Of a DNA stretch of 64,000 nt, positions 1,007 through 64,000 are shown piece by piece (position 1 is the first letter of the stretch; each line of letters begins with the position of its first letter). A program made the translations under genes and the position numbers. The notes beneath the pieces were generated by a model. It did not search any database. It had not been told where the DNA came from and saw only the letters and a list, made by a program, of their open reading frames with translations. The DNA is taken from IMG/VR virus record IMGVR_UViG_3300029419_000188; one strand, written 5' to 3'. This DNA is from a virus.

Positions 1007-1678
1007 TACTAAATATTGTAATAATAAACACTGCAAACCCAGTACTGTAGTTGCAAATCCATTCCCTTCTATAGTAACAAGAACAATAGACAAGCTATTG
1101 TTCTATTTTGCGTTTTATGATTTCATTCTTCTATTAAGTATGATAAATTTATATAAAATCAGAAAGTAATAATATATAAAATACATCATACGTTTCGGTA
1201 ATTTTGATTGATAAAAATTATAAATAGAAATTTGTAAAAAAAATGATAAACAATCAAAATACTCCAAAGAACAGATTTAAAACAAGTAATGATTATAGAT
1301 GTTTTGATAAATAAAATATAATTGAAAATATATAAAATAAAATAGTTAACAAAACAAATTAATATATTAAAAACTGTTCTTTGTGATAGATACATCATTT
1401 ATGATAAGTTCTGTGTTCTTTAATAATTTCTTACCGATAAAAAAGAAGAATGATAATAGATGTACTGTTATCTTTAGAAACGCTATAGTATATTGAAATT
1501 ATATTTATATTGTTATATGATAAAACATTTATATATTATATTATTCAGATGAAAACTAATCAAAAATGTTTTTGTGTAATTTACACAAATTAAAATTTAT
1601 CTAAAATTTAAAAATATCTAAACACAAAAAAGTTAATACAGTTTTTTTTGTATTAGATTTCATGTTTTATAAAGTTTT

Positions 1679-1690
1679 ATCTATAATAAA
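1679..1690 (+). promoter_or_regulatory. recurrent promoter motif (T-rich)-ATCTATAATA, representative copy
   Basis: the same extended -10-like motif occurs at ~2557, 3417, 9835, 10296, 10650, 17583, 19174, 21583, 22403, 25792, 30793, 34894 and 46486, each 20-60 bp upstream of a start codon. Confidence 0.55.
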
Positions 1691-1729
1691 AAAATGAAAT
1701 TAAAAAAGAATAAAAAAGGAGGAGTTTTT

Positions 1730-3361: not shown

Positions 3362-3447
3362 AACATGAAAAGCTAAGACATTTTTTGTATTAGATTTTAT
3401 ATTTTATAGAGTTTTATCTATAATAAAAAAAATAAAAATTTATTATT

Positions 3448-3562
3448 TGGAAAAGAATACTCCAACTGATTCATGAACAAAACAACGTTTTGTGAATGAC
3501 AGTATTTTCATGAACAACACAATGTTTTGTGAATAATCAGTCAGAGATGAATTTTCCAACTC
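3448..3562 (+). repeat. IS200/IS605 left-end-derived repeat, copy A (contains a ~65-bp internal duplication-bearing insert)
   Basis: shares ggaaaagaatactccaactgatt ... atcagtcagagatgaattttccaactcg with the IS end at 62084-62172; near-perfect inverted copy at 6478-6562. Confidence 0.6.
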
Positions 3563-4220
3563 GTAAGAGTACAAACAGAGAAAATCTTTCTCTGTTTGTT
3601 GTAATTTTAAACAAAAGTAAATAACTTAATGATAAAAATATTGTGTAATTTTCACAAAAAAAATAGATAATGCAATAAATGATTATACATTTATCATAAA
3701 TTGTAATATAATAGAAATTGATAATTCAGAAAAAGATATTATTTTTGAAAAATTTAAGAAATATTGTTTAAAAGAAGTTAGTGAACTACCACAAACCCTC
3801 TAACGAGGGAATGTGGCTTCTATTCAATAGTTCACTAGACCATGACATTAAGAAATTGAGATGATGCAGGGATAGATAGATTATAACACCTACGGTTGTC
3901 GCCTCAGACTGTTGTTCTGTCGTATATATTTAAGTAGAGTTAGCGTAAGCAAAGCTCGGTGATATATACATGTAAGTCTCTTTATCAAGGTCGAGAGGAA
4001 GTACAAATGATATATTGTGGTATAACTTCTTTATACATATGATATATCAGTAGTCATAACAAAATATAGAAAAGTTTTCTTTCCTATATTTTGAATTATC
4101 GTATTCAGTTACTTCATTTTTTATAATTGAACAGAAATTCCATCAGATGTTTAAGAATATTTTAAATTTTTCACAACATATTCTTATACTTCTTTTTCAT
4201 TAACTGAAAGGAAAAAATAA

Positions 4221-4610
4221 ATGAATACAGATATTGATATAATTATTGAAGATTTAGTTATGATTGCAAAAGAACAGATAAACATAAATTATCCAATTCA
4301 AATTGAAGAACTAAAGCCATATATTGTTTCATTTAATTCTGATTTTAAGGATTTATCTTTATTTGATATGTGTTTTGAATTAGGAAAATTTTTGATAGAG
4401 ATGTTAGATTATCATTCAGAAATATTTTCTGATGAACAACTTTATAATAAATTTGCAGCTAGATTTTTATTTCCACCAGAATTATTTGTTGACAATTGTA
4501 GAAAATTTATGAAAAATGGAAAAGTAAATTGTACAAAAGTTGCTGAGTATTATAAAGTACCTATCAAAGTCATTGTACTACGTGGAATGGAATTAAATTT
4601 ATGGACATAA
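4221..4610 (+). CDS. ImmA/IrrE-like (DUF955-type) domain protein with a degenerate metal site
   Basis: C-terminal E..YNKFAARFLFPPELF resembles the ImmA motif (AN.FA..LLMP); the expected HEXXH position reads FELGKFL, suggesting an inactive peptidase; RBS GAAAGGA. Confidence 0.4.
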   Translation: MNTDIDIIIEDLVMIAKEQININYPIQIEELKPYIVSFNSDFKDLSLFDMCFELGKFLIEMLDYHSEIFSDEQLYNKFAARFLFPPELFVDNCRKFMKNGKVNCTKVAEYYKVPIKVIVLRGMELNLWT

Positions 4611-4898
4611 GAAAATTTATAAAAGAGACATGTCTCAACTTGATTTTTTTAATACAGTTGATGAAGACTGAATTGATACAGATATTTTATATCTACACAA
4701 AAATCAATGGACAGATTTTTAAACAACAAAAGATTTAAATGAAGAAAAAAAAAAGAAGATATTCAAGAATATGGACCAAATTCCACTATTATAATTCATT
4801 AAAACAAACCAGTCATCACTGATGGCTGGTTTTAGTCTATTATAAATTATAAAAACAATTAATTAAATTGTATCTACAATTCTTTATTTTTTCTCAAA

Positions 4899-5246
4899 TT
4901 ATCTCATCTCAATTTTTTCTTCAATACCATCAACAACATAGTAGATCATACAATCTTCTGGTTTTACATAAATTTGTAATTCTGTTGCGTTTGGATGTTT
5001 TTCTCTAATTTCTTCTTCAACTTTTCTCAAATCAAATTGAGTATCACCAATTTCAAGATAAAGTTCATTTTTCTTTAATCTCTTCTTCCGTTTCTTCTTT
5101 GGAATTTCTTCTTTCATTTTTTCAACAACTTTTTCACTAGTTGTTTTTTCTTTCTTCTTTTCTACATCCTTTCCCTTTTTCTTAGGTTCTGTAATTTTTT
5201 CAACAGTAGTTTCTTCAACTACATCTGTATTTTCTAATTTTTTCAT
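4899..5246 (-). CDS. hypothetical lysine-rich basic protein
   Basis: ORF with good RBS (aaaggaag) on the minus strand; highly charged N-terminal half. Confidence 0.5.
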   Translation of the reverse strand: MKKLENTDVVEETTVEKITEPKKKGKDVEKKKEKTTSEKVVEKMKEEIPKKKRKKRLKKNELYLEIGDTQFDLRKVEEEIREKHPNATELQIYVKPEDCMIYYVVDGIEEKIEMR

Positions 5247-5556
5247 TTTTTTCTTCCTTTCAAATTTTGATGTTTATAAGTTAAATAATTAACTATAATA
5301 TTTATAGTAACATTGTAGTATAGTATAAATTAAAAAAAAATATTCAAGAAAAATGTATGAATTGGGAAAAGAAGAATAATTAATTGTGTTTAGACATTTT
5401 TAAAAACTAATCAAAAATGCGTTTATGTAATTTGCACAAAATTAAAAAAGATATATGATTTTACAGTGTTTTTTTTAATTTTTGAATAATTTTACATCTT
5501 TCATTTATAATACAAAAAATAAAATATTAAAATTTATAAAAAAAGGAGAGAAAATT

Positions 5557-6138
5557 ATGAATAAAATTTTTTGTATTATGGGTAAATCATCATCTGGAAA
5601 AGATACAATTTATAATCTTATTAAAAATCAATTTGAATTTGAGAATCTTTTGCCTGTGGTAATTTATAGCACTCGTCCAATGAGAGATGGAGAAATTCAA
5701 GATGAAACATATCATTTTATTTCTATGGACAAGATGAATGAACTTGAAAAGAATGGAGAATTAATTGAGAGAAGAAATTATGATACGGTAAATGGTATTT
5801 GGTCTTATGCAACTGGAATTAATTGTTTCAAACATAATAATAATTATCTTATTATTACAACACCAATTGCTTATAAAGAAATGCAGGATAAAATTAATGA
5901 TTTTGAACTTATACCAATCTATATTGAAGTAAATGATTATATTCGACTCACACGTGCATTAAATAGAGAAAAAATGAATGAAAACGAAAATTATGCAGAA
6001 GTGTGTAGAAGATTTTTATCTGATGCAGATGACTTTAGTGAAGAAATTCTTGAAAAATTAAAGATTACAAATAGATTTAATAATGATGAAAATTGTCTAA
6101 AAGAAGTTGAGTCATTTATAAAGCAAAATATAAATTAA
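5557..6138 (+). CDS. guanylate kinase-like nucleoside monophosphate kinase
   Basis: P-loop GKSSSGKDT and VIYSTRPMRDGEI..ETYHFIS match the Gmk pattern (G.SG.GK.T ... TTR.PR.GE..G.DYHF); start moved to the ATG with RBS AAAAAGGAGAGAAAATT. Confidence 0.65.
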   Translation: MNKIFCIMGKSSSGKDTIYNLIKNQFEFENLLPVVIYSTRPMRDGEIQDETYHFISMDKMNELEKNGELIERRNYDTVNGIWSYATGINCFKHNNNYLIITTPIAYKEMQDKINDFELIPIYIEVNDYIRLTRALNREKMNENENYAEVCRRFLSDADDFSEEILEKLKITNRFNNDENCLKEVESFIKQNIN

Positions 6139-6477
6139 AAAAGGAACTACTAACTGTTTGAACTAATTTACACAATTTATATAAAACTGAATATGTTTGA
6201 ATGGTTTTCAATAACAAATATAATTTAAGAGTACATTAAACATTGGTTGTAAAAAAAAGGAAGGAAAAATAAATGAAAAAATGATTGAATAAACAAATGA
6301 GTGCATTTGTTCTTGGATTTTTGGATACAGAAATGAATTATCGTTCTACAACAGATGAGGTTGTAGATGCCATCAAAATTGTAAAAGAACATATTATTAA
6401 AAAATTTTGGACAAGTTAGAAAGAAGTAATTATGAAACAGTAGAATGTGAATGATCTTATACAATTAATGTACATTC

Positions 6478-6562
6478 TTCATTGTGTTGTTCATGAAAAT
6501 ACTGTTATTCACAAAACGTTGTTTTGTTCATGAATCAGTTGGAGTGCTCTTTTGCCATTTTT
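6478..6562 (-). repeat. IS200/IS605 left-end-derived repeat, copy B (inverted relative to copy A)
   Basis: reverse complement matches copy A over ~70 bp with ~1 mismatch; its outer flank tctatc(a/g)aaaatggcaaaagagcactccaactgatt matches the IS end at 62084. Confidence 0.6.
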
Positions 6563-6615
6563 GATAGAAAAGAATTAATTATAAAAAAAATTAAATTTTA
6601 AAAGGAGAGAAAAAA

Positions 6616-7236
6616 ATGAAAGAAAATAAAGAATCTGTAGTTAGTAATGAAGATTTTACAAATATTTATAATAAAAATTCAGAAGAAATCAAAAATTTAA
6701 ATATAAAAAAGTCAGAAAGAAATTTTGAAAAAACAGTAACAAATATGAATGAAATAGATTATTTGAGACGAATATATACAAATCCAATACTTAGAATGAC
6801 AGAAATAGATTGTTCTAGTATTTCAACTGAAAACTGTGAAATGTGTTGTATGTTTATTGGAGATAATATATATTCTAGTGCATATGGTCAAATAAAAGGC
6901 TGTTTTAGATATAAAGATAATCGATTATTTGTATTTAATTGGAATATTCATCAACCAAATCAACCAGCAAAATTAGTAAATAGAATGACAAATATTAAAG
7001 AATTTGTAAAAAAATATGATGCAAGATTTAATTTGGAATATTTTTCATTTGAAGATACTTTATTTGGACTTAAATCATTTTTTATCTATACACCTTATGA
7101 TTCATTAACAACAAATGATGATAAAGATTTGAGAATATTAATGAAAAGTATAAGATCATTTGTAACAAAAGAAGAATTATATAAAAAAATAAAAAAAATG
7201 GATAAGAAATATTTAGAATTAAAAGGAATGGTTTAA
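6616..7236 (+). CDS. hypothetical protein, paralog family A (Cys-rich core CSSIS..NC.MCCMFIGDNIYS)
   Basis: consensus leader and RBS; ~75% identical over the core to 7947..8453. Confidence 0.6.
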   Translation: MKENKESVVSNEDFTNIYNKNSEEIKNLNIKKSERNFEKTVTNMNEIDYLRRIYTNPILRMTEIDCSSISTENCEMCCMFIGDNIYSSAYGQIKGCFRYKDNRLFVFNWNIHQPNQPAKLVNRMTNIKEFVKKYDARFNLEYFSFEDTLFGLKSFFIYTPYDSLTTNDDKDLRILMKSIRSFVTKEELYKKIKKMDKKYLELKGMV

Positions 7237-7237
7237 T

Positions 7238-7816
7238 ATGGAAACGTTGAAGAGTAATTGGAGAAAAATTGAAGAAAAAAAGAAAGAGTGGTTAAATTTT
7301 TATAAAAAAAATACAGAATATAAAAATGTAAATATGAAAGTTTTACAATTCATTAATGAAATTACATTTTTTCCAAATTTGGATTGTACTTCAGATGGAT
7401 GTATTGACAATCTTTTTTTTAATGGATATTGCTATTATTTTGCACAAATTTTAAATACTGCTTTTTCAGGTGGTACCGTTTGTTGGAGCGTAGATCGAGG
7501 TCATATTGTTTGGTTGGATGGTACTGACTTAGAAAATGATATTGCTTATGATATTACTGGTGTTTATGAAGATTATGAAGAACTTCGTCCAGTTTCATAT
7601 CTTGGAACAACAATTGTTGATTTTTTACATAATGGTGAAAAATGGAAATCAAATGATAAAGAATTTGAGAAATATTGTAAAGAAAAAAATGTGGAAGAAA
7701 TTTATGAAATTGAAACAATATGGATGAATATTCCAAAAGAAATATTAAAAAAATATGATAAGACAAATTTAACATTACCAGAAGTTGCATTAGATTATTG
7801 GCATAAAAACAAGTAA
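7238..7816 (+). CDS. hypothetical protein
   Basis: ORF coupled 2 nt after the upstream gene; terminator hairpin at ~7824-7862. Confidence 0.5.
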   Translation: METLKSNWRKIEEKKKEWLNFYKKNTEYKNVNMKVLQFINEITFFPNLDCTSDGCIDNLFFNGYCYYFAQILNTAFSGGTVCWSVDRGHIVWLDGTDLENDIAYDITGVYEDYEELRPVSYLGTTIVDFLHNGEKWKSNDKEFEKYCKEKNVEEIYEIETIWMNIPKEILKKYDKTNLTLPEVALDYWHKNK

Positions 7817-7946
7817 TCCTAACAAAAGAACTTGCAAATTATATTTTGTGAGTTCTTTTGTTTAAAGGTAATATTTTGTTTATAATTATTTATAATATAT
7901 ATATCATAACTATTAAAAATAGAAAGGAGAAAAAATATTAATTAAT

Positions 7947-8453
7947 ATGGATGAAATAAATTATTTAAGAAAAATGTATACAAATAAGATAATGCAAATG
8001 ACAGAAATGGATTGTTCAAGTATATCAACTAAAAATTGTAAAATGTGTTGTATGTTTATTGGTGATAATATATATTCTAATGCATATGGACAAATAAAAG
8101 GTTGTTTTAGATATAAAGATAATAGATTATTTGTATTTAATTGGAATGTTCACAGACCAAATGAACCTGCAAAATTAGCAAACCAAATGACACTTATTCA
8201 AGAATTTTCAAGAAAATATGATTCTGAATTTAATTGTGAATATTTTGCATTTGAGGATACATTGTTTGGTCAGAAAGCATTTTTCTTGTATACACCATAT
8301 ACTTCATTAACAACAGATGAAGAGAAAGATTTAAGATTATTAATGAAAAATGTAAAAAATTTTGTAGTAAAAAAAGAATTATGTAAAAAGTTACGAAAAA
8401 TGGATAAAAAATATTTGAGATTGAAAGAGACACAAGAGACTTATGAAGATTAG
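7947..8453 (+). CDS. hypothetical protein, paralog family A
   Basis: paralog of 6616..7236; RBS AAAGGAGA. Confidence 0.6.
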   Translation: MDEINYLRKMYTNKIMQMTEMDCSSISTKNCKMCCMFIGDNIYSNAYGQIKGCFRYKDNRLFVFNWNVHRPNEPAKLANQMTLIQEFSRKYDSEFNCEYFAFEDTLFGQKAFFLYTPYTSLTTDEEKDLRLLMKNVKNFVVKKELCKKLRKMDKKYLRLKETQETYED

Positions 8454-8784
8454 ATTAGATTTTGTTACAAATTCATCAAGTTCATCATTTATTATTACAA
8501 ATACAAATAATCAATCAATTAATGGATTAGGAATTGCTTTTTAGCTTAAATATGAATTTGAAAATGTTTGTGAAGAACTAGGAATTGATAATTATACATT
8601 TCAAGAATTTATAAATGATACATTTAGTCGTATTTCAAGGAATATTCAACCATGTGAAACTATTACGATTGAGTGTGAAGACAATGGATCTAATATTTTT
8701 GATACAGTTATTTATGAAACAATAAGAAACACATGGAAAGAATTTTCAACATTTTTAATTCAATTTGAAGAAAATCATCATTGA
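8443..8784 (+). pseudogene. ORF interrupted by a single in-frame TAG (8542-8544)
   Basis: ATG 8443 and TGA 8782-8784 share one frame (342 nt) with only one internal stop; no alternative start after the TAG. Confidence 0.3.
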
Positions 8785-8808
8785 TATTTTTAAAAAGGAG
8801 GAGTTTTA

Positions 8809-9495
8809 ATGAATAAAGAAATGATAGAAGCGTTAAATCATATTCAAAAAGATATAAATAATTTGGAAAAACAAAAAGAAACAATAAAAAATATCGATTT
8901 GAATAAATCTGTAACAGAAACAGAATGGCATAATATTTGTTTAACACCACTACGGAATACAACTATTATGAAAAAGCTTTTAAAAAACATATTTCCAAAT
9001 GCAACTGACATTAAAGTTAGAGCAAATGATGTATTATTTACATTATATGGATTTGAATGTTCCATTCCAACATGGATAGGTAAATGTATTAATTTAAATA
9101 TGTCTTGGAATTATGAATTAAAAGAACCAACAATTGAGAGTTTCATGAGTCGTAGTGAATACAGTATGAGATTATACTTTGAAACACTTGATAATCATGG
9201 TCAGTGGGAATTATTATTTAACTATAGATTACCAACTTATAAAAATAGTAAAAAAATAATAAAATTTTTCATGTGGTTTGGAAAATATAAATGGAAAGAT
9301 GTTCATCGAGAAAAATGGGAAGAACAATTCAAAAATACAGAAAACAAATTAAAAACAGAATTAGAAACATATAAACAAAAGAAAAAAAATATAGAAAAAA
9401 AGAGAAAACTACTACATGAAAAATTACTACCAGAACTTTATGATTTTACAAATGAAGTTTCACATATGAATGATCAATCAGTTATAATTTCTTAA
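8809..9495 (+). CDS. hypothetical protein, paralog family B
   Basis: RBS AAAAGGAGGAG; paralog of 19220..19903 (shared NATDIK, LYGF.C..PT, WFGKYKWK.VHREKWEEQFKNTE). Confidence 0.6.
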   Translation: MNKEMIEALNHIQKDINNLEKQKETIKNIDLNKSVTETEWHNICLTPLRNTTIMKKLLKNIFPNATDIKVRANDVLFTLYGFECSIPTWIGKCINLNMSWNYELKEPTIESFMSRSEYSMRLYFETLDNHGQWELLFNYRLPTYKNSKKIIKFFMWFGKYKWKDVHREKWEEQFKNTENKLKTELETYKQKKKNIEKKRKLLHEKLLPELYDFTNEVSHMNDQSVIIS

Positions 9496-9755
9496 AAAAA
9501 ATAAGAAAGGAATAAAATTTTATGAATGATAGATGTTTATATAATGTACAAAAATCAATTATTGAAGAAATTAAACAAGAATTGTTAAAGAAAGCAGAAA
9601 CAGAAAGACAAAAAAATGTAATTAAAGAAGTTTGTAATTCGGTTGCAAGAAAACACAGATTTGATGATTTAAAATAATTTAAGTGTTAAAAAAATGCATT
9701 ATAATTGATATTTTGGTTAACTTGATTCAAAAACTTAACTTCACTATAAAAAATT

Positions 9756-9795
9756 ACTCCACTTGATTTAAACAAGTGGAGTTTTATAACTTTAA
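9756..9795 (+). terminator. rho-independent terminator
   Basis: hairpin actccacttg-attt-aaacaagtggagt followed by TTTTAT. Confidence 0.6.
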
Positions 9796-9886
9796 TAAAA
9801 AATAAACTTTTAAGTTGTAATTATTTTTCTTGTATCTATAATAAAAAAGAACAAGTAATTAATAAGAATAAAAAGGAGAAAATTTT

Positions 9887-10117
9887 ATGAAATTTGAAAA
9901 ATATAATAAAGTATCATTTTTACATCAAAGATATATTCAACAAATACGGACGTATTTAAATTCAGTTGGAAATTTAAATGCAACAGATCTTGAATTAGAA
10001 AATGCTTGGATACAATTTTCAGAGTATTTTCTTAATCAAAATTGGATTGAAGTAACTAATATGCATCTAAAAGTCTTTGCAGAATGGTTACAAAAATATT
10101 GTGATGAAATTGAATAA
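9887..10117 (+). CDS. hypothetical small protein (NATDLELENAW family)
   Basis: promoter tctataat at 9835 and RBS; C-terminal motif shared with the C-terminus of 46978..47478; terminator hairpin at 10161-10196. Confidence 0.5.
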   Translation: MKFEKYNKVSFLHQRYIQQIRTYLNSVGNLNATDLELENAWIQFSEYFLNQNWIEVTNMHLKVFAEWLQKYCDEIE

Positions 10118-10695
10118 AAGATAAGTTTTAATGTTTTTTCTTAAAATGTTTAAAATAATTAAATTGTCTCTATTTTTATGGAGACAATTTAATTTTTGAG
10201 TCATAATGAAAAAAATAAATAGAAATTATGTTTAGATATTTTTTTTAAAAGTAGAAACTCAAACTATTTTTTTTTCATATTTTTCTTACATTTGTCTATA
10301 ATAAAGAAAAATTTCAGAAAGAATTAAAAAAGGAGAAGAAATTATAATTTATGGATGAAAAAGTATTGAGAAAATTTAAGACAAATAATTTGACAACTAT
10401 GAAAAAGATATTTCATAATTGTAGTGAATGCTACTCAAATAATAAAAGAAGAAAGTGTAAGTAAGAATGCTTCTGATTCATTAGATCTAACTTGGATTAT
10501 TAAATAAGATATTTACCATGCAAATTTGCATGGTATTTTTTTTGATAAAATTTGGAAAATGATTTAATTGTCTACACAATTTTATCTAATTTCAATTATT
10601 TCATAATATCTTAAATTTTCTTAAATTCATTATATTTGTCTCATAATTATCTATAATATAAAAAAGAATTTTAAGTTTTTAAAAGGAGAGAAATT

Positions 10696-11340
10696 ATGAA
10701 TATTAATGATTATCTTAAAATGTTTAATGAAACATTAATGAATGCAAAAATTAAAGATACAATAGATATTGATCATTTGAAATATGTTGCAATTCAAACA
10801 ATTGAAAAACAATATAAAGTAAATTATCTTACTTCTGATTCAATATCTGTTTCCTATCCATTTTCAAAATTTACAACAGATGGATATGAAATTAAATGTA
10901 AGTTAAATTTCATATTCAAAATTCAAGTAGGTAAAACAGATAAAAAGGAAATGATATCAGAAAAGAAATTTAAATATCTAAGACATTTGAACGGAATTAA
11001 ATTTGTTAAAAGTACTATTTCTTTAAAAGTTAATATATTTAAATTTGTATCTAATAAAACAATTGCTGCATCTGATTGGTCTGGAATTTCTCCAATTGAT
11101 ATTAAATTGAAAAAAAATCAAGAAATAAAAAATTTCATTGAAGAGTTAGATATTGATAAATTTAAGATTGATACAAAACAGATTGTGTGTTTTCCATTTA
11201 TATTGAAAGCTGAACATGAAAAAGATTTCGCAGATCAACATAATTATAATCAATTCATTATTGGACAGCATAAATATGATTTTGATAAAATGTATCAATA
11301 TATTTTTGATAAATTTGAAGTAAAAAAACAAATAAAATAA
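10696..11340 (+). CDS. hypothetical protein
   Basis: consensus leader TTTTAAAAGGAGAGAAATTATG; promoter tctataat at ~10650. Confidence 0.55.
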   Translation: MNINDYLKMFNETLMNAKIKDTIDIDHLKYVAIQTIEKQYKVNYLTSDSISVSYPFSKFTTDGYEIKCKLNFIFKIQVGKTDKKEMISEKKFKYLRHLNGIKFVKSTISLKVNIFKFVSNKTIAASDWSGISPIDIKLKKNQEIKNFIEELDIDKFKIDTKQIVCFPFILKAEHEKDFADQHNYNQFIIGQHKYDFDKMYQYIFDKFEVKKQIK

Positions 11341-11478
11341 TATAAGAAAAATTAATGGAAAACTTATAAAAACAGATATTGAACAACATGTAATGCAAGA
11401 AAAATATTATTTGAGAGAAGAACTTTCATATAAATTTATATAAATTTGATTAAGTTTTCAAAAGGAGAGAAATTACGA

Positions 11479-11664
11479 ATGAAAGAAATTGAAAAAAAAT
11501 TAAATAATCTTGAAGATGAGTTTGAAAAAATGAGAGAAAAAATTAAAACAAATAATTTATCAAATTGGAAGTGTTCCTGTAATTTAAATATTTCAGAAGA
11601 AGAATTAAAGAATTGGAATACAGATAATCCAGATAATATGTGGAAGATTAAATTTATGAAATAA
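11479..11664 (+). CDS. hypothetical small protein
   Basis: consensus leader AAAAGGAGAGAAATTACGAATG; start moved to the internal ATG with RBS. Confidence 0.45.
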   Translation: MKEIEKKLNNLEDEFEKMREKIKTNNLSNWKCSCNLNISEEELKNWNTDNPDNMWKIKFMK

Positions 11665-11676
11665 GGATAGAAAATT

Positions 11677-11718
11677 ATGGGAAAAGTAATATTTTGTTAT
11701 GGAGGTAGAAACAGTTAG
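11677..11718 (+). pseudogene. remnant of a thymidine kinase 5' end (MGKVIFCYGG..stop)
   Basis: matches the first ~10 codons of the TK gene at 19920 (MGKLIFCYGAMG), then an early stop. Confidence 0.4.
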
Positions 11719-11907
11719 AACATTATTACACAAATATGTACAATTTTTCTTGATTGTACATATTTTTAGTTACATATTTTAATTGGTTGTTATATAATAT
11801 AAAAAAATACAAGAAAAAAGAATCTTATATGTTCAGGTATTGAATATTTAAATAAATTAGATTTTAGAGAAATTAGAAATCATTTAGCAACTTACGAAAA
11901 AGATGAA

Positions 11908-12135
11908 ATGGAAAAATTTCATTTACCAGGTCGAACATGGAAAATGGAATTATCAGAAGTCATTTCAAATGTAAAAACAATGTGGGTAAATACTGCTGAT
12001 GAAATAAAACATTATATCCATGATAATGAGTATCTAACAAGTGAAGATCAACATTATTTATTTTATATATTAAAAAGTACGGATTTATGGACAGAAGCAT
12101 TACAATTTAAAAAAGTATCTGAAACTAAAAATTAA
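11908..12135 (+). CDS. hypothetical small protein
   Basis: ORF only. Confidence 0.35.
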   Translation: MEKFHLPGRTWKMELSEVISNVKTMWVNTADEIKHYIHDNEYLTSEDQHYLFYILKSTDLWTEALQFKKVSETKN

Positions 12136-12216
12136 GTACAATTCAAGTCTCAAAAGATAAATCTTATTTATGATGTTGGTTAAAAACTTCCTAGTAGAAA
12201 ATAATAAAAAAATTTG

Positions 12217-12236
12217 AAATATCTGTTGACAATTGT
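12217..12236. promoter_or_regulatory. 14-bp palindrome TTGACAATTGTCAA-like candidate operator overlapping a -35 element, representative copy
   Basis: further copies at ~36884, 40822, 46417 and 56326, each matching the palindrome at 12-13 of 14 positions. Confidence 0.5.
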
Positions 12237-12284
12237 CTTTAAAAATGGTATTATAAATTCATAAATAAGAAAGGAAAGAAGTTT

Positions 12285-13679
12285 ATGATTCAAATTATTA
12301 TTCCAATTATTGTAGCAATTATTTTAATCTTTTTTATGGGATATGTAAAAGCTCCACCAAATATTGCAATTATTATTTCTGGTTTAAAGAAAGAACCAAG
12401 GTATTTGATTGGACGAGCTGGAATTAAAATTCCATTTCTAGAAAGAAAAGATACTCTAATTGTAAAACAAATTTCAGTTGATATTAAAACAAATGGTGCA
12501 ATTCCAACTGCAGATTTTATTGGTGTTGATGTTGATGCTGTTGCAAAGATTAAAATTAAAACTGATCAAGATGGTATTAAAAAAGCAATGGGAAACTTTC
12601 TTAATATGTCTGAAGATCAAATTATTGAAGCACTCACTGATTCTCTTCAGGGCAACATGAGAGAGATTATTGGTACAATTCCATTAAAAGATATCTGTAA
12701 TGATAGAAAACGTTTTGGAGATGAAGTACAAGAAAAAGCACAAACAGATATGAATGCACTTGGTATTGAAATTATTTCTTGTAATATTCAAAGAGTAGAA
12801 GATGAAAATGATTTAATTAATGCTCTTGGTCAAGATAATATGGAACAAATCAAGAAAGATGCAAGTATTGCTAAAGCAAATGCCAAAAAAGAAGTTGCCA
12901 TTGCAGAAGCTGAAGCAAGAAAAATTGCAAATGAAGCAGATGTTGAAGCTGACAGAATTATTGCAGAAAGAAATAATGAGCTTGAAATTAAGAAATCTGA
13001 ACTTAAAAAACTTGCTGATATGAAGAAAGCAGAAGCTGATGCTGCATATTCAATTCAAGAACAAGAACAAAGAAAATCCATTGAAGTAACAACAGCAAAT
13101 GCAGATATTGCAAAAGAAGAACAATATATTATTCTAAAACAAAAAGAAGCAGATGTTAAAGAACAATCTCTTAATGCTGAAATTAAGAAAAAGGCAGAAG
13201 CAGACAAATTTGCAAAACAACAAGATGCTGAAGCTCAATTATTTGCAAGACAAAAAGCAGCAGAAGCTAAAAAATATGAATTAGAATTAGAATCTGCTGG
13301 TATTAGAGCAAAAGGTGAAGCTGAAGCCGATGCAATTAGAGCAAAAGCAATTGCAGAAGCTGAAGGTATTGAGAAAAAAGCAGAAGCAATGCAAAAATAT
13401 GGTGAAGCTGCTATTCTTGAAATGTTCTTTAATGCATTTCCAGAAGCAGTTAAAAATGCAGCAGAGCCTCTTGGTAATGTTGAATCTATTACCATGTACG
13501 GTAGTGGAAATAATGAAAAAATGATTGATTCAATTATGAATACTGTAACACAAGTATCAGATGGAATTAAAGGATCAACTGGATTAGATGTAAAAGCTAT
13601 TATTGAAGAAATGATTGAGAAAAAGAAAGAAACAAATCAAGATTTCAAAGAAGTTGATGTTGAAGAAACTGTTGAATAG
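12285..13679 (+). CDS. flotillin-like SPFH/Band-7 domain membrane protein
   Basis: N-terminal TM helix, SPFH core, then a long Ala/Glu/Lys-rich coiled coil (AEAEARKIA...) typical of FloT/YuaG-like flotillins; sigma-70-like promoter TTGACA-17-TATTAT upstream, overlapping the palindrome TTGACAATTGTC. Confidence 0.7.
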   Translation: MIQIIIPIIVAIILIFFMGYVKAPPNIAIIISGLKKEPRYLIGRAGIKIPFLERKDTLIVKQISVDIKTNGAIPTADFIGVDVDAVAKIKIKTDQDGIKKAMGNFLNMSEDQIIEALTDSLQGNMREIIGTIPLKDICNDRKRFGDEVQEKAQTDMNALGIEIISCNIQRVEDENDLINALGQDNMEQIKKDASIAKANAKKEVAIAEAEARKIANEADVEADRIIAERNNELEIKKSELKKLADMKKAEADAAYSIQEQEQRKSIEVTTANADIAKEEQYIILKQKEADVKEQSLNAEIKKKAEADKFAKQQDAEAQLFARQKAAEAKKYELELESAGIRAKGEAEADAIRAKAIAEAEGIEKKAEAMQKYGEAAILEMFFNAFPEAVKNAAEPLGNVESITMYGSGNNEKMIDSIMNTVTQVSDGIKGSTGLDVKAIIEEMIEKKKETNQDFKEVDVEETVE

Positions 13680-13681
13680 TT

Positions 13682-13712
13682 AAAGAGAGAGTTTTTAACT
13701 CTCTCTTTTTTA
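13682..13712 (+). terminator. rho-independent terminator
   Basis: hairpin aaagagagagttttt-aactctctcttt plus a T-run. Confidence 0.7.
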
Positions 13713-14162
13713 GTTTAAATTTTTCCCATATAATTTTTTGTTTATAAAGTTTTGATTACAATCCAATTGATATAAATCTGTATTATTATAAGGAATATAA
13801 ACCATATAATATGTTTGTCCAATACGAATTTGATTTAAATTTTCTCTTAAAGTAAAATCTTCCGTTAATTTCAAATTATCATAATTTGAAAAAAGCATTT
13901 TTTGATAAGAACGTTTATGTTTCCCACTAGTTTTATAATGTTGAATATCGATCAATTCAACTTTTTGAATATAAAAATTATTTTCTTTAATTTTTTTTAT
14001 AATTTTTTTTGTAAGAATTTAAAGCAAAATTATAAATTAACAGATATAAAATTGCAATTGTTGCTTCATGAAATGAAAATAAAAGATTATTTGTTATATT
14101 TTTTTTATAAAAATATATAATATAAAAATTAAACTTATAAGAATTTTAAAAGGAGTAAATTT

Positions 14163-14393
14163 ATGAAAAAACCAACTAAACAAGAATATGAAGAAGCTTG
14201 TAATAACATTAATTTTTGTAAAAATACAATTCGTTTAACAAGACAGAAGATTGATAAAAATTTAGATGAACTTTGTTCTTTAAAAAGTCAATTAAACACT
14301 TATCAAGAATTTTTAAATCAATCAATTAAAATCAAAGATAAATATGAAATTTATGAAGGATTAGAAAACGAGAAAAATGAAGAAAATTTGTAA
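14163..14393 (+). CDS. hypothetical small coiled-coil protein
   Basis: RBS AAAGGAGTAAATTT. Confidence 0.45.
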   Translation: MKKPTKQEYEEACNNINFCKNTIRLTRQKIDKNLDELCSLKSQLNTYQEFLNQSIKIKDKYEIYEGLENEKNEENL

Positions 14394-14448
14394 GACAAGT
14401 AGAATAAACAAATGAAAATATTTAAAATTTTCAAAAGGAGAGAAAATT

Positions 14449-15063
14449 ATGGAAAAATTTAAGTTAGAGAAAACTATTGAACTTGGGAAGAAAGTAATTA
14501 TTTCTGATCCTGGATATAATATGGATACTTGGTGTATTGGCATATTAAATGACGTACTACTTGGTACATATGAATGTTTTTATGAAATAATTGAAGATAA
14601 TTCTTGGGGAAGAAGAATTGCTTCAATTGAAGTAAAAAATAAAGATTATGAATTTTATGATTTTTCAGAAAACCTTGATGCAGAGATTGGAGTTGATTCT
14701 GGACAATGTGGAATCTATGATTATGATTATTTTAAGCAGAATAATCAGAAAGAAGATTGGTATGGTCAAATTTGTAATTTAACATATATTGAAGAAGAAA
14801 ATCCAAATTATAAAAATTTTTATGAATCAAAATATTATTTTGATCAAGATATAGATGATTTAAAATGGATTAAATATCAAAAATATGTAGATGATGAAGA
14901 AATTTCAAGAATGTTTTTTTCTAGATTTGCAGCAGATACATTCGAGGATAAATGTCTTGTATCTTCATCTGGATATGGTGATGGTTTATATGATGCATTT
15001 GTAGAAAGAAACAATGATGGAAAAATCATTGGAATAAAAATTTCATTTATTGAAGAAGAGTAA
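14449..15063 (+). CDS. hypothetical protein
   Basis: consensus leader; terminator hairpin at 15069-15100 (aaatacattctaga-ttt-tctagaatgtattt). Confidence 0.5.
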   Translation: MEKFKLEKTIELGKKVIISDPGYNMDTWCIGILNDVLLGTYECFYEIIEDNSWGRRIASIEVKNKDYEFYDFSENLDAEIGVDSGQCGIYDYDYFKQNNQKEDWYGQICNLTYIEEENPNYKNFYESKYYFDQDIDDLKWIKYQKYVDDEEISRMFFSRFAADTFEDKCLVSSSGYGDGLYDAFVERNNDGKIIGIKISFIEEE

Positions 15064-15171
15064 TTTAAAATACATTCTAGATTTTCTAGAATGTATTTTA
15101 CTTAAGATAGATTCCTTTTAATTTTGAATCATTCCACTGATTTTGATTCAAATTATTACTTTGATATCTTT

Positions 15172-15455
15172 ACTACTCAAAAAAGTGGTCACAGTCTCCA
15201 CAATGATAGATCTCAACATTTGGTTTATCAAAACTATCGTATTCAAATTCTTCATTTGTGTAATATTTTCTATCATTGACTGCAATGTAATCTACACCGC
15301 TTGTCCTGTCAAAATCCATTCGAAACTTAAAAATCTTCTTACTACCACAATATGGACATTGACATTATCTGTATTGGGCAAGTGTCTTTAAATGTGAAAG
15401 ATAGTGTTCAGTCAGATATTCAATGTCATCAATATCTTCATCAATCTTGTGAATT
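15172..15455 (-). pseudogene. disrupted paralog of the Zn-ribbon gene 61350..61772, with an in-frame TAA and its 5' part separated by an IS insertion
   Basis: minus-strand translation ...LAQYR*CQCPYCGSKKIFKF...EIYHCGDCDHFF aligns with ...KQYRKCKCPRCGSKKIFKF...EIFHCGECDYLFS; the likely N-terminal remainder lies beyond the IS at ~17257-17330. Confidence 0.5.
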
Positions 15456-17256: not shown

Positions 17257-17632
17257 ATGCAGTTTCTATTTTAATCAAATGCTGAGTTAATTTCCAATGA
17301 TGTATCAATTACAGCTGCAAATAAAACTGTAAAATTTGAAAAGGTAAATACTTCAACTGCAGACAAAGAAAACACAAATACAGTCAATAATACAACAACT
17401 GATAATCAAAATAAAGTAGATAAAACACAAACAAGCGATAATAATCTTGTTGTAATTATTCAATATTCATTAATATTTATTTTCTGTATTGAATTAGTTT
17501 GATATTTCATAAAGAAAAAAAATTAATCTTTTAAGAAGAATGCAAAAAATTGCATTCTTCTTTTATATTTTTTATATTTTTATCTATAATATAAAAAATA
17601 ATATTTTTGAATTTTAAAAGGAGAGAAAAATT

Positions 17633-18136
17633 ATGAAATATTTAAGCAAATTAACAGATGCAGAACTTACGGAAATTTACAAATCTTTTATGACTTCAAC
17701 TGATAAATTTGTAGATTTAATAATTACAAGAGATGAGAACAGTATTACACTAGAAGGACATATTCGTATTCCAGAAGAAGATAAAGAGTATGCAGATGAA
17801 GAAGGATATTGTCTAATTGATGAAGATTATGAGATTACAGATTACAATGTAACAGCATATCATCATTCTGGAAATATGGATTATAAATTAAGAGAATATT
17901 TATATGAAAAATTTGGAGTTGAATATGCAAAAGATTTCTTATTTATGAATAATAATTTTACTGGGCATTATGATGTAAATGGAAAACCAATCTTCCTCGG
18001 AGATACTATTATTGAAGGTTGTAATGGACTTATCAGTAGTGTTGAATTTAATAAAGAACGTGGTGCATATTGGTTAAAAGGACTTGGTGATGGTTATTCA
18101 ATTGAAAATTCATCTATTGAATGGGAAAAAATTTGA
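17633..18136 (+). CDS. hypothetical protein
   Basis: promoter tctataat at 17583; consensus leader. Confidence 0.5.
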   Translation: MKYLSKLTDAELTEIYKSFMTSTDKFVDLIITRDENSITLEGHIRIPEEDKEYADEEGYCLIDEDYEITDYNVTAYHHSGNMDYKLREYLYEKFGVEYAKDFLFMNNNFTGHYDVNGKPIFLGDTIIEGCNGLISSVEFNKERGAYWLKGLGDGYSIENSSIEWEKI

Positions 18137-18149
18137 AAGGAGTGAAAAT

Positions 18150-18464
18150 ATGTATTGTAAAAAACTGAAAGAAAAGAATTGTTTAAAAATAGGTGGAATC
18201 TATAGTATTGATGATAAATATTTGATTATTCCTATTACAAATGATTTACAAGCAGTACTTCAATTAGATGATATTCTTAAAAAATATAAAAAACAGATAC
18301 CAAGTAATGAATTGATTAATATATTTGTTGAAGATTTTTTTGAAGATACTGAGTTTAAACATTTTGATCAAATATATTATAATGGATATTTAGGTCAACT
18401 TGATAAAAGGAATTTGAATTTGATAGAACTTAATTATCAAACAATTCAAGAAAAAAAGAAATAA
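18150..18464 (+). CDS. hypothetical protein, KIGGIY paralog family
   Basis: N-terminal LKIGGIYSIDDKYLII shared with 34519, 42353 and 53419(-); RBS GAAAGGAGTG. Confidence 0.5.
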   Translation: MYCKKLKEKNCLKIGGIYSIDDKYLIIPITNDLQAVLQLDDILKKYKKQIPSNELINIFVEDFFEDTEFKHFDQIYYNGYLGQLDKRNLNLIELNYQTIQEKKK

Positions 18465-18499
18465 TATTGAAAAATTTAAGATTAAAAAGGAGAAAAATT

Positions 18500-19903: not shown

Positions 19904-19919
19904 AAAAAGGAGAGAAAAT

Positions 19920-21161: not shown

Positions 21162-21173
21162 AAAGGTGAAATT

Positions 21174-43974: not shown

Positions 43975-43984
43975 CATATAAAAT

Positions 43985-44220
43985 AGTTGGAGAGCTTCAT
44001 TAGATACTTTATATTTAGGTGATTGGGACTTTTCTAATGGAGAAAGTTTTGATTACATTTTTTCTAATTGTAAAAATTTAAAAGATATATATTTATCAGA
44101 TACCTTTCCACAATTAACAGAAGATATGTTTTTTAATTGCAATCCAAATTTAAAAATTCATTGGAAAGATAAGATTTATACATACCAAGATTTAATTGAA
44201 TATTCAATATTTGAAAATTA
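43985..44220 (+). pseudogene. C-terminal remnant of a DUF285/PARCEL family gene
   Basis: translates to ...LGDWDFSNGESFDYIFSNCKNLKDIYLSDTF...NLKIHWKDKIYTYQDLIEYSIFEN*, matching the C-termini of 1730..2497 and 2606..3361; no start or N-terminus. Confidence 0.55.
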
Positions 44221-61772: not shown

Positions 61773-62172
61773 TAATTATAAAGAGTGGACATATTTTTGT
61801 TCACTTTTTTTCTTATATTTTTTTCAAATAATTATCATTATCAAACTGAATACAAATACTATATTGTAAAAATTTTGACTCTCTAAAATCAATTCTAAAC
61901 CCTTTTCAAGATTGTCTTAATGTATTTATATCATGACTGAGATTATAATTGTCTTAATTGTTTCTAGTATGTTTTCCGAAATTTAATAAAAATAGGTTTA
62001 CATAATTACATTATAGTTAACTTATTTGGTACTTGTGAATATTGTATCTTGATTTTTATCAATTGATTATCATTTCTATCGAAAATGGCAAAAGAGCACT
62101 CCAACTGATTTTTTAAATCAGTCGGAGATGAATTTTGCTCAACTTGAAAAGTTGGTTGAATAAATAGTTTAT

Positions 62173-62592
62173 TTATTCAACTTTTTGATTTTTGATATAT
62201 TCTTCCACTATTTTTGTGTTTCTTTCACTAACAGTACAAATAAAATAAGAATGACTCCAAAAATATGGTTTCCAATAATATTTATTTAATTGTTGTTGAA
62301 AGTTTTTTCTTATGTTCCTTGATGAAGCACTTTTAAATGCATTTATAAACTGAGATAAATTTACATTTGTACCACATTCAAATAATATATGAATATGATC
62401 AATATTTGTATTTATTTCAAGTAAATGAAAATCTCTTTCACTAAAATATGTATTTGTATAGTTTATTAAAAATTTTTCTAAATCATTATTAATTATAGGT
62501 TTTCTGTATTTTGTAACTAACACTAAATGGTATTGTAATAAAAAGCAACTATGTCGATTTAAATAATATGTATTGTTGTTATTTTTTTTCAT
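62173..62592 (-). CDS. tnpA: IS200-type Y1 (HUH) transposase TnpA
   Basis: HxH motif IDHIHILFE and Tyr region HSYFICTVSE; start at MKKNNNN with RBS AGGAAGGAG. Confidence 0.7.
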   Translation of the reverse strand: MKKNNNNTYYLNRHSCFLLQYHLVLVTKYRKPIINNDLEKFLINYTNTYFSERDFHLLEINTNIDHIHILFECGTNVNLSQFINAFKSASSRNIRKNFQQQLNKYYWKPYFWSHSYFICTVSERNTKIVEEYIKNQKVE

Positions 62593-62783: not shown

Positions 62784-64000
62784 ATGTATTACCAACAAGA
62801 TGAAAATAAAATGTATCAAGCTCAAACAATTGTAGTAAACAAACTAAAAGAACAAAAATTATTTCATTATTGTGAAGAACAATGTCATGCTGCAAAATTA
62901 TTAAGGAATGCAACTGTATTTCGTGGACGGCAATTACTTTTTGCATATAATAATGATTATAAAAATTTAAAAAATCATCAAATAGAAGTCATTGATGAAT
63001 TTAATACCTATATATCTGATAAGTATGGAAAGATTTCAAAAAATCACTATTTACCATATTCTCAAGAGTTTGAATATTTATATAAACAGAGTAATAATCC
63101 TGATTATTTTAATCCAATTTTAACATCTCAAACAAGAACTAGAGTTGTAAAACAAGCAATGGAAGATTTTAGTTCCTTTTTTAAGAATACAAAAAAATAT
63201 TATTCAGATTCTAAAAATTATACAGGCAAACCAAACTATCCAAAATATACAAAAGTTGAAACAATTACAGTCGATTATTCTAATCAAGATTGTACTATTT
63301 ATGAAATAGATGGTATTACTTATTTAAAATTACCACATATGCAAAAAAATAAAAATGCAAAATTGAAACCTAAAAAATGTGGTTATATTAATCTTGGTAA
63401 ATTAAAAATTAGAAAATTAATGAATTTAAAAATTTCACCTTATTATGACACTTATAAAATCAGTCTTGTTTATGAAATTGAAAAATTCACTACTTCATTA
63501 GATAATACAAGAATTTTAGGTCTTGATCCAGGACTAAATAACTTTTTAACTTCAAGTAATAACTGTGGATTACATCCATTTATTATTAATGGAAGAGATA
63601 TGAAGTCTTACAATCAACACTATAATGAAAAACTTGCTTATTTAAGAAGTAGATTACCAAAGAAACAATACACTTCTAAACAAATACAAAGATTATCAAA
63701 AAAACGAGACTGTTATTTTAACAATAAATTTCATAAAATAATAAATTATATCATCCAATATTGTATAAAAAATAACATTGGTACAATTGTTATTGGACAC
63801 AATAAATTACAAAAACAAAATTATAATAACGGTAAAATTCAAAATCAACATTTTTGTTTTATGCCAAATTATAAATTTCTTAAAATGTTTAAATTAAAAT
63901 GTGCAGTTTATAACTTAAACATAATAGAAACAGAAGAAAGTTATACCTCTCAAGCAAGTTTTTTAGATATAGATAAAATTCCAACTTATAAAAAGGGAAA
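62784..64000 (+). CDS. tnpB: TnpB (IS605 OrfB family), partial; continues beyond the window
   Basis: LGLDPGLNNF (RuvC-I D) and ESYTSQ (RuvC-II E) motifs; no stop before position 64000. Confidence 0.7.
   Translation, partial: MYYQQDENKMYQAQTIVVNKLKEQKLFHYCEEQCHAAKLLRNATVFRGRQLLFAYNNDYKNLKNHQIEVIDEFNTYISDKYGKISKNHYLPYSQEFEYLYKQSNNPDYFNPILTSQTRTRVVKQAMEDFSSFFKNTKKYYSDSKNYTGKPNYPKYTKVETITVDYSNQDCTIYEIDGITYLKLPHMQKNKNAKLKPKKCGYINLGKLKIRKLMNLKISPYYDTYKISLVYEIEKFTTSLDNTRILGLDPGLNNFLTSSNNCGLHPFIINGRDMKSYNQHYNEKLAYLRSRLPKKQYTSKQIQRLSKKRDCYFNNKFHKIINYIIQYCIKNNIGTIVIGHNKLQKQNYNNGKIQNQHFCFMPNYKFLKMFKLKCAVYNLNIIETEESYTSQASFLDIDKIPTYKKG

What the first reader, a model, noticed from the sequence alone, without database searches (positions are those of the whole stretch)
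3448..6562. Inverted copies of an IS-left-end-derived repeat bracket a 3-kb module (ImmA-like, basic protein, guanylate kinase)
Copies A (3448-3562, + strand) and B (6478-6562, - strand) are ~70-85 bp inverted repeats with about one mismatch. Both match the end sequence of the IS605 element at 62084-62172, except that a ~65-bp insert (itself containing a direct repeat catgaacaa..gttttgtgaat) expands the loop of the end hairpin. These may be miniature (PATE/MITE-like) derivatives of the IS end. Their inverted arrangement could mediate inversion or mobilisation of the enclosed 3-kb segment.
Basis: seen in the sequence. Interest (0 to 1): 0.55.

Follow-up and report, generated by a model that had tools for sequence, protein, structure and literature searches.

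The report
Decayed IS605-family left-end relics
The two inverted repeats are real, but they are leftover end-pieces of small IS200/IS605-type jumping genes that landed twice, in opposite directions, in a variable gene array; they are not the ends of a mobile or invertible 3-kb module.

Summary
Observation confirmed. Arms 3451-3524 and 6480-6553 are 74 nt and 96% complementary. Both carry the CTCCAACTGATT hairpin arm of the left end (LE) of the IS605-family element at 62080 (tnpA 62173-62592 minus; tnpB from 62784).

Interpretation only partly holds. The "65-bp insert" is not foreign. It is a 26-nt stem-loop found once in the LE of a sister element ("ISx": LE, promoter, 584-aa TnpB-like gene, RE; complete in metagenome locus L018). 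The same stem-loop sits in the right end of the IS605 element itself. Here it is tandemly duplicated (period 37).

Copy A is not miniature. It is the ISx LE plus about 180 nt of 5' leader, cut off at the start codon. An orphan IscB guide RNA follows (HEARO, 3781-4006, 80.7 bits, E 6e-16) with no iscB gene. Copy B is the outer half of an inverted LE. Other contigs carry long, compact or further-deleted alleles at the same site.

Related human-gut contigs hold the module genes without A or B. The genes are reshuffled independently of the repeats, and none shows the segment inverted. Both copies are LEs on opposite strands with no partner right end, so TnpA cannot move the segment. Ordinary IS debris in a rearrangement hot spot.

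The parts
3439..3443 (+). TTTAT immediately outside copy A; putative target/TAM pentanucleotide
   Evidence: All LE junctions catalogued (C-type, A-type and the B site) are preceded by T[C/T]TAT. Homology to the insertion-free contig L025 ends exactly at 3443. The target role is inferred.
3444..3562 (+). Copy A: complete left-end hairpin of the sister element ISx. Outer stem GGAAAA 3449-3454 / TTTTCC 3552-3557; inner stem 3460-3471 / 3535-3546; loop module duplicated at 3472-3534.
3563..3745 (+). 5' leader of ISx: small hairpin, terminator-like hairpin 3571-3599, promoter-like site 3684-3712. Homology stops at the position of the TnpB-like start codon.
   Evidence: 87% identity to L011 and 77% to L018; alignment; consensus scan.
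3781..4006 (+). Orphan HEARO RNA (IscB omega RNA scaffold). Its 3' end carries the SD and an ATG at 4007, but the ORF is only 11 codons.
   Evidence: RF02033, 80.7 bits (gathering 83), E 6e-16, model positions 1-211 of 211. 76% identical over 135 nt to a canonical HEARO+IscB locus, L122. No IscB remnant found by tblastn.
4221..4610 (+).
   Evidence: No Pfam hit. Weak sub-threshold hit to the C-terminal part of the spr1629 repressor/antitoxin family, E 6e-5.
4899..5246 (-).
   Evidence: PF20069, E 1e-11.
5557..6138 (+). Guanylate-kinase-like P-loop kinase, 193 aa
   Evidence: PF00625, E 1e-9. TIGR03263, far below cutoff.
6273..6419 (+). 48-aa ORF, intact in other contigs; broken here by TGG>TGA at 6282-6284
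   Evidence: Genetic code 11 checked.
6480..6563 (-). Copy B: outer arm of an LE (identical to the L010/L017-type IS605 LE) plus the duplicated loop module. The inner arm is deleted. TCTAT lies at 6564-6568 just outside.
62075..62172 (+). Copy C: TCTAT (62075-62079) plus the left end of the resident IS605-family element; two-tier hairpin at 62085-62140
   Evidence: Boundary from three independent insertion sites; fold z -5.3.
62173..62592 (-). tnpA, Y1 HUH transposase, 139 aa
   Evidence: PF01797, E 3.5e-36.
62784..64000 (+). tnpB (468 aa in full), runs off the window end. The RE and omega-RNA region lie beyond the window.
   Evidence: tblastn 98% over residues 1-405; loci L001-L010.
43984..44000 (+). 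Last ~17 nt of an ISx-type right end (TAGTTGGAGAGCTTCAT), abutting a truncated DUF285 gene. Another scar of the same family.
   Evidence: Compare the ISx RE in L018.

Best explanation
A and B are relics of two separate insertions, in opposite orientation, of members of one IS200/IS605 family. That family comprises the resident tnpA-tnpB element at 62080 and a non-autonomous sister, ISx, which carries a 584-aa TnpB-like gene.

Each element inserted 3' of a T[C/T]TAT motif in an intergenic region of a variable accessory-gene array. A landed in the 5' leader of a third DUF285 paralogue. B landed between a 48-aa ORF and the 206-aa ORF. Deletions then removed the body and right end of each element.

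What remains at A is the LE hairpin plus the IS leader (terminator-like hairpin and promoter). This is now fused to a relic of a third element type, an IscB-type omega RNA (HEARO) whose iscB gene is gone. What remains at B is only the outer arm and loop of an LE.

The LE is a two-tier imperfect palindrome of the kind that Y1 TnpA binds as single-stranded DNA. In the ISx lineage its loop carries a 26-nt stem-loop that also occurs in the RE/omega-RNA end of the tnpA-tnpB element. In this genome lineage that module is duplicated in tandem (37 nt). Other strains have collapsed it back to either unit.

Shown: the homologies, boundaries, alleles and hairpin conservation. Inferred: T[C/T]TAT as the target, the order of events, and that B's IS605-type outer arm arose by recombination or conversion within the shared 13-nt core. 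The relics have no transposition function of their own. Their main effect is local instability.
For: (1) IS identity. TnpA is PF01797. A divergent 468-aa TnpB sits alongside it. LE and RE boundaries come from three to four independent insertion sites.

(2) The loop module. CATGAACAAAACAAYGTTTTGTGAAT is in the RE of the same IS. It is present once in A-type LEs of L011, L013, L018, L032, L034 and L035, and in B-site alleles L022/L023.

(3) ISx. In L018 the A-type LE is followed by a leader, a 584-aa ORF with sub-threshold TnpB/Cas12f matches, and an RE hairpin ending AGCTTCAT. The window is homologous to that leader up to the start codon.

(4) Insertion-free comparison. L025 reads ...TTTAT|DUF285 leader, and homology to the window ends exactly at 3443.

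(5) B-site alleles:
- L029: long inverted LE plus about 190 nt of leader.
- L022/23/24/28: compact complete hairpin.
- Window: truncated.
- L026: a further 151-bp deletion with 7-nt microhomology.

(6) Hairpin conservation. 93.9% of cells are paired, against 46% or less in slid controls. Compensatory changes occur at two informative pairs, CG/GC/GU and UA/AU.

(7) No right-end motif lies on the appropriate strand near A or B. The only hit in the window is a 17-nt scar at 43984.

(8) More debris of the same family is in the window: a TnpB-like C-terminal fragment with an omega-RNA-like region and RE at 53966-54746.
Against: No empty site was recovered for the B site or for the IS at 62080, so T[C/T]TAT as target and the exact LE start remain inferred.

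At the B site, different contigs carry different outer-arm types: ISx-like in L022, IS605-like in the window. This needs an extra event (conversion, or a second insertion at the same target) that I cannot document.

A and B share the same derived duplication at 96% identity, although their leaders are only about 76% alike in L029. That fits sequence exchange between the copies, so they may not be fully independent.

The host genome is unknown, and only short-read assemblies that break at these repeats were available.
Confidence: 0.75

Rival explanations
1. A and B are PATE/MITE-like miniature non-autonomous elements that TnpA mobilises in trans.
For: A compact hairpin-only allele of about 95 nt exists at the B site in L022/L023/L024/L028. 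Truncated A-type copies occur at several unrelated places (L010, L014, L016). PATEs are documented for this IS family (Meers et al.).
Against: None of the copies has a right end. A continues into the ISx leader. The compact allele sits at the same site as the long allele (L029), and its inner junction looks like a microhomology deletion (GTGAA/GGAAAA) rather than a transposon boundary. A single LE hairpin is not a known TnpA substrate. The exact-pattern scan found only 9 contigs in JGI metagenomes and none in the GTDB or IMG/VR sets, so there is no sign of amplification.
Confidence: 0.1
2. The inverted pair makes the 3-kb segment invertible by homologous recombination, or mobile as a composite unit.
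For: 74 bp at 96% identity in inverted orientation is enough for occasional RecA-dependent inversion (general knowledge). The arms bracket a discrete set of genes.
Against: Every contig that spans DUF285-to-129aa or GK-to-206aa has the window's orientation. No chimeric junction occurs among the catalogued copies: A's outer arm is never joined to B's inner flank, nor the reverse. The genes occur without the repeats (L025) and in other orders (L023-L029). Two LEs on opposite strands cannot be processed by TnpA.
Confidence: 0.03
3. The retained hairpins are functional in the host, for example as RNA structures, insulators or terminators, or (for A with its promoter) as a driver of the downstream HEARO RNA.
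For: A lies directly downstream of a DUF285-type promoter. The ISx leader supplies a terminator-like hairpin (3571-3599) and a promoter-like site (3684-3712) about 70 nt upstream of a full-length HEARO scaffold. Hairpin pairing is conserved.
Against: Hairpin conservation is explained by TnpA recognition in the active elements. Other strains delete two thirds of the HEARO RNA (3850-4161) or parts of B without compensation. B does not fold better than shuffled sequence. No terminator-like site lies at B.
Confidence: 0.07

Closest known systems
IS200/IS605 family, IS605 group (IS605/IS606-like elements with divergent tnpA and tnpB); solo or truncated left ends
   Same: Y1 HUH TnpA (PF01797) with a divergent TnpB. 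Subterminal imperfect-palindrome hairpins at both ends, no terminal inverted repeats, and a conserved pentanucleotide just outside the LE. The RE hairpin is embedded in the region downstream of tnpB where omega RNAs are encoded.
   Different: A and B are not elements, only LE fragments. The hairpin sequence (CTCCAACTGATT...) was not found in any of the 80 TnpA-relative loci kept from GTDB species representatives. The LE loop carries a stem-loop shared with the RE, which I have not seen described.
PATEs (palindrome-associated transposable elements), the gene-less derivatives of IS200/IS605
   Same: Short, hairpin-containing, IS-end-derived and protein-less. They co-occur with autonomous relatives (Meers et al. 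2023).
   Different: PATEs keep both an LE and an RE. A and B have only LE material and show no evidence of transposition.
HEARO RNA (RF02033), the omega RNA of IscB
   Same: Full-length match to the covariance model, including the SD and start codon at its 3' end. 76% identity to a canonical HEARO upstream of a 423-aa IscB in L122.
   Different: No iscB follows. The score is 2.3 bits below Rfam's gathering threshold. It sits behind the promoter of an unrelated IS leader.
IS200 left-end architecture (a terminator hairpin that blocks read-in, then the element's own promoter and leader)
   Same: The ISx leader has the LE hairpin, a terminator-like hairpin with a T-run, then a -35/-10-like site and an RBS. 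The IS200 comparison rests on my own knowledge.
   Different: The downstream gene in ISx is a TnpB-like nuclease gene, not tnpA. No expression was tested.

Membership tests
IS200/IS605 family transposon end (LE) | Subterminal imperfect palindrome able to form a hairpin in ssDNA | tested here: met
   A and C fold with z -3.3 to -5.8. 93.9% of cells paired across 14 copies, with compensatory changes. B retains only one arm.
IS200/IS605 family transposon end (LE) | Sequence homology to the end of an element that encodes a Y1 TnpA | tested here: met
   B vs C: 41 nt at 95%. A vs C: both arms align. TnpA is PF01797.
IS200/IS605 family transposon end (LE) | Conserved tetra/pentanucleotide target immediately 5' of the LE, no target duplication | tested here: inconclusive
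   T[C/T]TAT precedes every LE junction catalogued, and L025 gives one insertion-free comparison. No true empty site was recovered for C or B.
Functional non-autonomous IS200/IS605 element / PATE | An LE and an RE on the same strand flanking the unit | tested here: not met
   No RE motif near A or B. The only hit in the window is a hairpin-less 17-nt scar at 43984-44000. A and B are both LEs on opposite strands.
Functional non-autonomous IS200/IS605 element / PATE | Multiple dispersed copies with identical boundaries, and empty sites | tested here: not met
   9 metagenome contigs, and 0 in the GTDB-representative and IMG/VR sets. Copies differ in their inner boundaries.
Invertible segment / composite transposon | Both orientations, or presence/absence of the whole bracketed segment, among related genomes | tested here: not met
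   Only one orientation is seen in the contigs that span the junctions. Module genes occur without the repeats. Long-read data are not available here.
HEARO / IscB omega RNA (RF02033) | Match to the covariance model at or above the gathering score | tested here: inconclusive
   80.7 bits against a gathering score of 83; E 6e-16; full-length model with most helices supported.
HEARO / IscB omega RNA (RF02033) | Located directly upstream of an IscB (RuvC+HNH) ORF | tested here: not met
   Only an 11-codon ORF follows. tblastn with the L122 IscB finds nothing in the window.

The most novel reading that the evidence does not exclude
The orphan but structurally complete HEARO omega RNA, now placed about 70 nt behind the captured promoter of the ISx leader, is still expressed. 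It would act in trans with an IscB encoded elsewhere in the host, using a fixed internal 'guide' (3765-3780). That would be a naturally uncoupled or domesticated guide RNA. A related reading: the stem-loop shared between LE loops and the RE/omega-RNA end means that LE copies are bound by the TnpB-omega machinery as well as by TnpA.
Probability: 0.06. Interest if true: 0.55.

Novelty: new member of a known kind. Interest (0 to 1): 0.25.

Why it matters
This mainly prevents a wrong annotation. The 3-kb block is not a mobile or invertible cassette, and the repeats are IS200/IS605 debris.

There are modest positive points. It documents an undescribed IS605-family lineage from an uncultured human-gut replicon, with defined LE and RE, a probable T[C/T]TAT target, and a stem-loop module shared between LE and RE hairpins. 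It also shows how such hairpin relics coincide with frequent microhomology deletions and allele turnover. Finally, it adds an example of an omega RNA that has outlived its IscB nuclease.

Tried and rejected
- Exact-pattern scans for the expanded hairpin found nothing in GTDB species representatives or in IMG/VR. A C-type LE pattern also found nothing in IMG/VR.
- Megablast of window 6600-26000 against the phage and plasmid collections gave no match, so the host or replicon could not be named.
- TnpA relatives in GTDB representatives are at most 64% identical over the full-length protein (68% for two C-terminal fragments). None of the 80 kept loci carries this hairpin.
- I looked for empty sites through the neighbouring 140-aa and 206-aa proteins. 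Every contig carries the IS or the repeat, or breaks inside it.
- I tested whether TGA is a sense codon, prompted by TGG>TGA in the 48-aa ORF. Rejected: code 11 fits.
- I searched the window for a target of the HEARO 5'-adjacent 16-mer. Matches are at chance level.
- I searched for IscB remnants by tblastn and found none.
- I considered that the plus-strand DUF6465 gene upstream of the 129-aa gene in L023-L029 reflects an inversion. Rejected: L025 has both genes, and they are 68%-identical paralogues.
- The 584-aa ISx protein has no PDB relative by sequence.
Full report
**1. Observation**

The repeat is there. The repeat finder reports arms 3451-3524 and 6480-6553, 74 nt and 96% complementary. 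A second pair, 6533-6573 and 62070-62110, is 41 nt at 95%.

The dodecamer CTCCAACTGATT occurs exactly at 3460 (+), 6533 (-) and 62099 (+). Partner arms lie at 3535-3546 and 62116-62127, but there is none for B. The internal repeat CATGAACAAAACAACGTTTTGTGAAT occurs at 3472 and 3509 (two mismatches), and on the minus strand at 6507, with zero expected by chance. TRF describes it as a period-37 tandem array.

A three-way alignment shows that A matches the IS end on both sides of the loop. B matches only on the outer side and diverges after CACAATG.

As ssDNA, C and A fold far better than shuffles (z -5.3/-5.8 and -3.3/-3.6). B does not.

**2. What the reference copy is**

The ORF at 62173-62592 (minus) is a Y1 transposase (PF01797, E 3.5e-36). 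An exact-protein look-up found it on 24 metagenome contigs. It always lies next to a divergent 468-aa OrfB_IS605/TnpB gene. That gene starts at window 62784 and runs off the window end.

Comparing three independent insertion sites puts the LE boundary at TCTAT|CGAAAATGG, window 62079|62080. Comparing four sites puts the RE boundary at ...GTCAGTCGGAGTAATTCAT|. From the L001 coordinates the element is about 2.36 kb.

**3. The "insert" is a native module**

The RE of this same IS reads ACTCCAACTCATT-CATGAACAAAACAATGTTTTGTGAATGACA...GTCAGTCGGAG.

A scan of JGI metagenomes with CTCCAACTGATTCATGAACAA returned nine human-gut contigs. Together with the look-up loci they fall into two classes:
- Right ends of a sister tnpA-tnpB IS (L012, L015, L017, L019).
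- "A-type" left ends, of the form T(T/C)TAT-..TTGGAAAAGAAT-ACTCCAACTGATT-[one stem-loop]-AATCAGTCGGAG-ATGAATTTTYCC-..., in L011, L013 and L018. Truncated copies occur in L010, L014 and L016.

In L018 the A-type LE is followed by:
- a leader;
- a 584-aa ORF with sub-threshold TnpB/Cas12f2 matches (NF040570 at 6e-8, TIGR01766 at 5e-7);
- about 400 nt further on, a right-end hairpin CTCCAACTGAATAACATTCGTTATTCAGTCGGAG+AGCTTCAT.

I call this element ISx.

Window A carries the stem-loop twice. Alleles of the same locus carry both units (L033), unit 1 only (L035) or unit 2 only (L032, L034, L037). This is what slippage within a 37-nt tandem duplication would produce.

**4. Anatomy of A**

Homology between the window and L011/L018 runs from the LE through the leader and stops at the TnpB-like start codon, about 3745. 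The leader holds a small hairpin, a terminator-like hairpin at 3571-3599 and a promoter-like site at 3684-3712.

Thirty-five nucleotides later, at 3781-4006, Rfam's HEARO model (RF02033, the IscB omega RNA) matches over its full length. The score is 80.7 bits against a gathering score of 83, with E 6e-16. The model's 3' end is the SD and start codon, but here the ORF is only 11 codons.

An IMG/VR contig (L122) that shares a 23-mer has a canonical HEARO (101.9 bits) followed by a 423-aa IscB. tblastn with that IscB finds nothing in the window.

According to Meers et al. [quoted passage not shown] So 3781 marks the end of a third, IscB-type element whose nuclease gene is lost.

**5. Anatomy of B**

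The outer arm, TCTAT|CAAAAATGGCAAAAGAGCACTCCAACTGATT, is identical to the LE of the L010/L017 IS copies. The loop carries the same duplication as A. The inner arm is gone.

At the same site, between the 48-aa ORF and the 206-aa ORF, other contigs show different alleles:
- L029: a long inverted LE plus about 190 nt of ISx leader.
- L022, L023, L024, L028: a compact complete hairpin with an ISx-type outer arm.
- L026: a further 151-bp deletion with 7-nt microhomology.

The inner junction of the compact allele lies at a short GTGAA/GGAAAA homology. That points to deletion rather than to a transposon boundary.

**6. The 3-kb segment is not a unit**

Exact look-ups of the 193-aa kinase-like protein, the 129-aa protein and the 206-aa protein gave about 20 distinct places.
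- L025 has the 129-aa, DUF6465 and kinase genes with neither A nor B. Its homology to the window breaks at 3443|4186 and at 6414.
- At the left break, L025 reads ...TTTAT|AAAAATAAAAAAAGGATATATG, the leader and start of a DUF285 paralogue. A therefore sits 3' of a TTTAT in that leader.
- L023/24/26/29 lack 4617-5470 and have another DUF6465 paralogue upstream.
- Six contigs lack 3850-4161, which is two thirds of the HEARO RNA.
- Every contig that spans a junction has the window's orientation. No catalogued copy joins A's outer arm to B's inner flank, or the reverse.

**7. Mechanistic reading**

TnpA of this family binds subterminal hairpins on one ("top") strand. It needs an LE and an RE on that same strand, and it inserts 3' of a short target read by base pairing (PMC3201880, PMC5027513).

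A is a top-strand LE on the plus strand, and B is one on the minus strand. No RE lies on the appropriate strand. The only RE-like hit in the window is a hairpin-less 17-nt scar at 43984-44000, which abuts a truncated DUF285 gene. So neither copy, nor the pair, is a transposition substrate.

The two-tier hairpin is conserved across 14 distinct copies: 93.9% of cells paired against 46% or less in slid controls. Compensatory changes occur at pair 17-88 (CG/GC/GU) and pair 37-68 (UA/AU). This is expected from TnpA recognition in the active relatives.

**8. Unsettled**

- The target motif and exact LE start are inferred, because no empty site was found for B or C.
- I cannot document how B acquired an IS605-type outer arm while L022 has an ISx-type arm at the same site.
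- The 96% identity of the A and B loops, against about 76% identity of their leaders in L029, suggests sequence exchange between the copies.
- The host is unknown. There is no match in the phage or plasmid collections, and TnpA relatives in GTDB representatives reach at most 64% identity over the full-length protein.

**9. Verdict**

This is a real repeat with an ordinary cause. It consists of nested, decaying IS200/IS605-family ends in a rearrangement-prone accessory region. The orphan IscB guide RNA is the most interesting by-product.

Noticed in passing
window 3781-4006 (+): Full-length HEARO (IscB omega RNA) scaffold at 80.7 bits with no iscB gene. It sits about 70 nt downstream of the promoter-like site of an unrelated IS leader.
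   Followed up: yes
window 3850-4161; loci L032-L035, L037, L038: Six related contigs lack this 312-bp stretch (two thirds of the HEARO RNA plus downstream sequence). The junction has a 7-nt overlap.
   Followed up: partly
window 6273-6419: A 48-aa ORF that is intact in other contigs is broken here by TGG>TGA at codon 4. An extra A lies in the upstream poly-A run. Code 4 was tested and rejected.
   Followed up: yes
window 43984-44220: TAGTTGGAGAGCTTCAT resembles the last 17 nt of the ISx right end. It directly abuts the C-terminal ~70 codons of a DUF285 gene, so it looks like another IS scar with an adjacent deletion.
   Followed up: partly
window 53966-54746 (+): A 150-aa ORF is 35% identical to the C-terminus of the 584-aa ISx TnpB-like protein. 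It is followed by a GC-richer structured region and an RE-like hairpin (CTTCCCACTT...AAGTGGGAG TAGTTCAAT). This is probably a relic of a third relative.
   Followed up: partly
window 15440-17093 (-), 15165-15303 and 61642-61780: A separate intact TnpB (437 aa, NF038281 at 2e-99) has an RE-like hairpin ending TAATTCAC. Next to it is a fragment paralogous to the Zn-ribbon ORF that also flanks the IS at 62080 (139-nt inverted repeat, 71%).
   Followed up: no
window 1644-1699, 2520-2575, 3381-3436: Tandem DUF285/BspA-like LRR genes each have the same promoter/leader block. The third block is followed by copy A instead of a gene.
   Followed up: partly
window, e.g. 10269-10337, 17537-17632, 19128-19216, 21536-21606, 43296-43391: Many genes share an upstream block TATTTTTTAT-N-TTATCTATAAT followed by AAAAGGAG. 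This is a recurrent promoter-like architecture across the replicon.
   Followed up: no
whole window; loci L001, L002, L021, L119: The same sequence recurs as 72-73-kb contigs in several human-gut metagenomes. It carries an integrase (58132-59250), a thymidine kinase-Panacea fusion and YunG-like genes, at 23.4% GC. It may be an extrachromosomal or integrative element of an uncultured host.
   Followed up: partly
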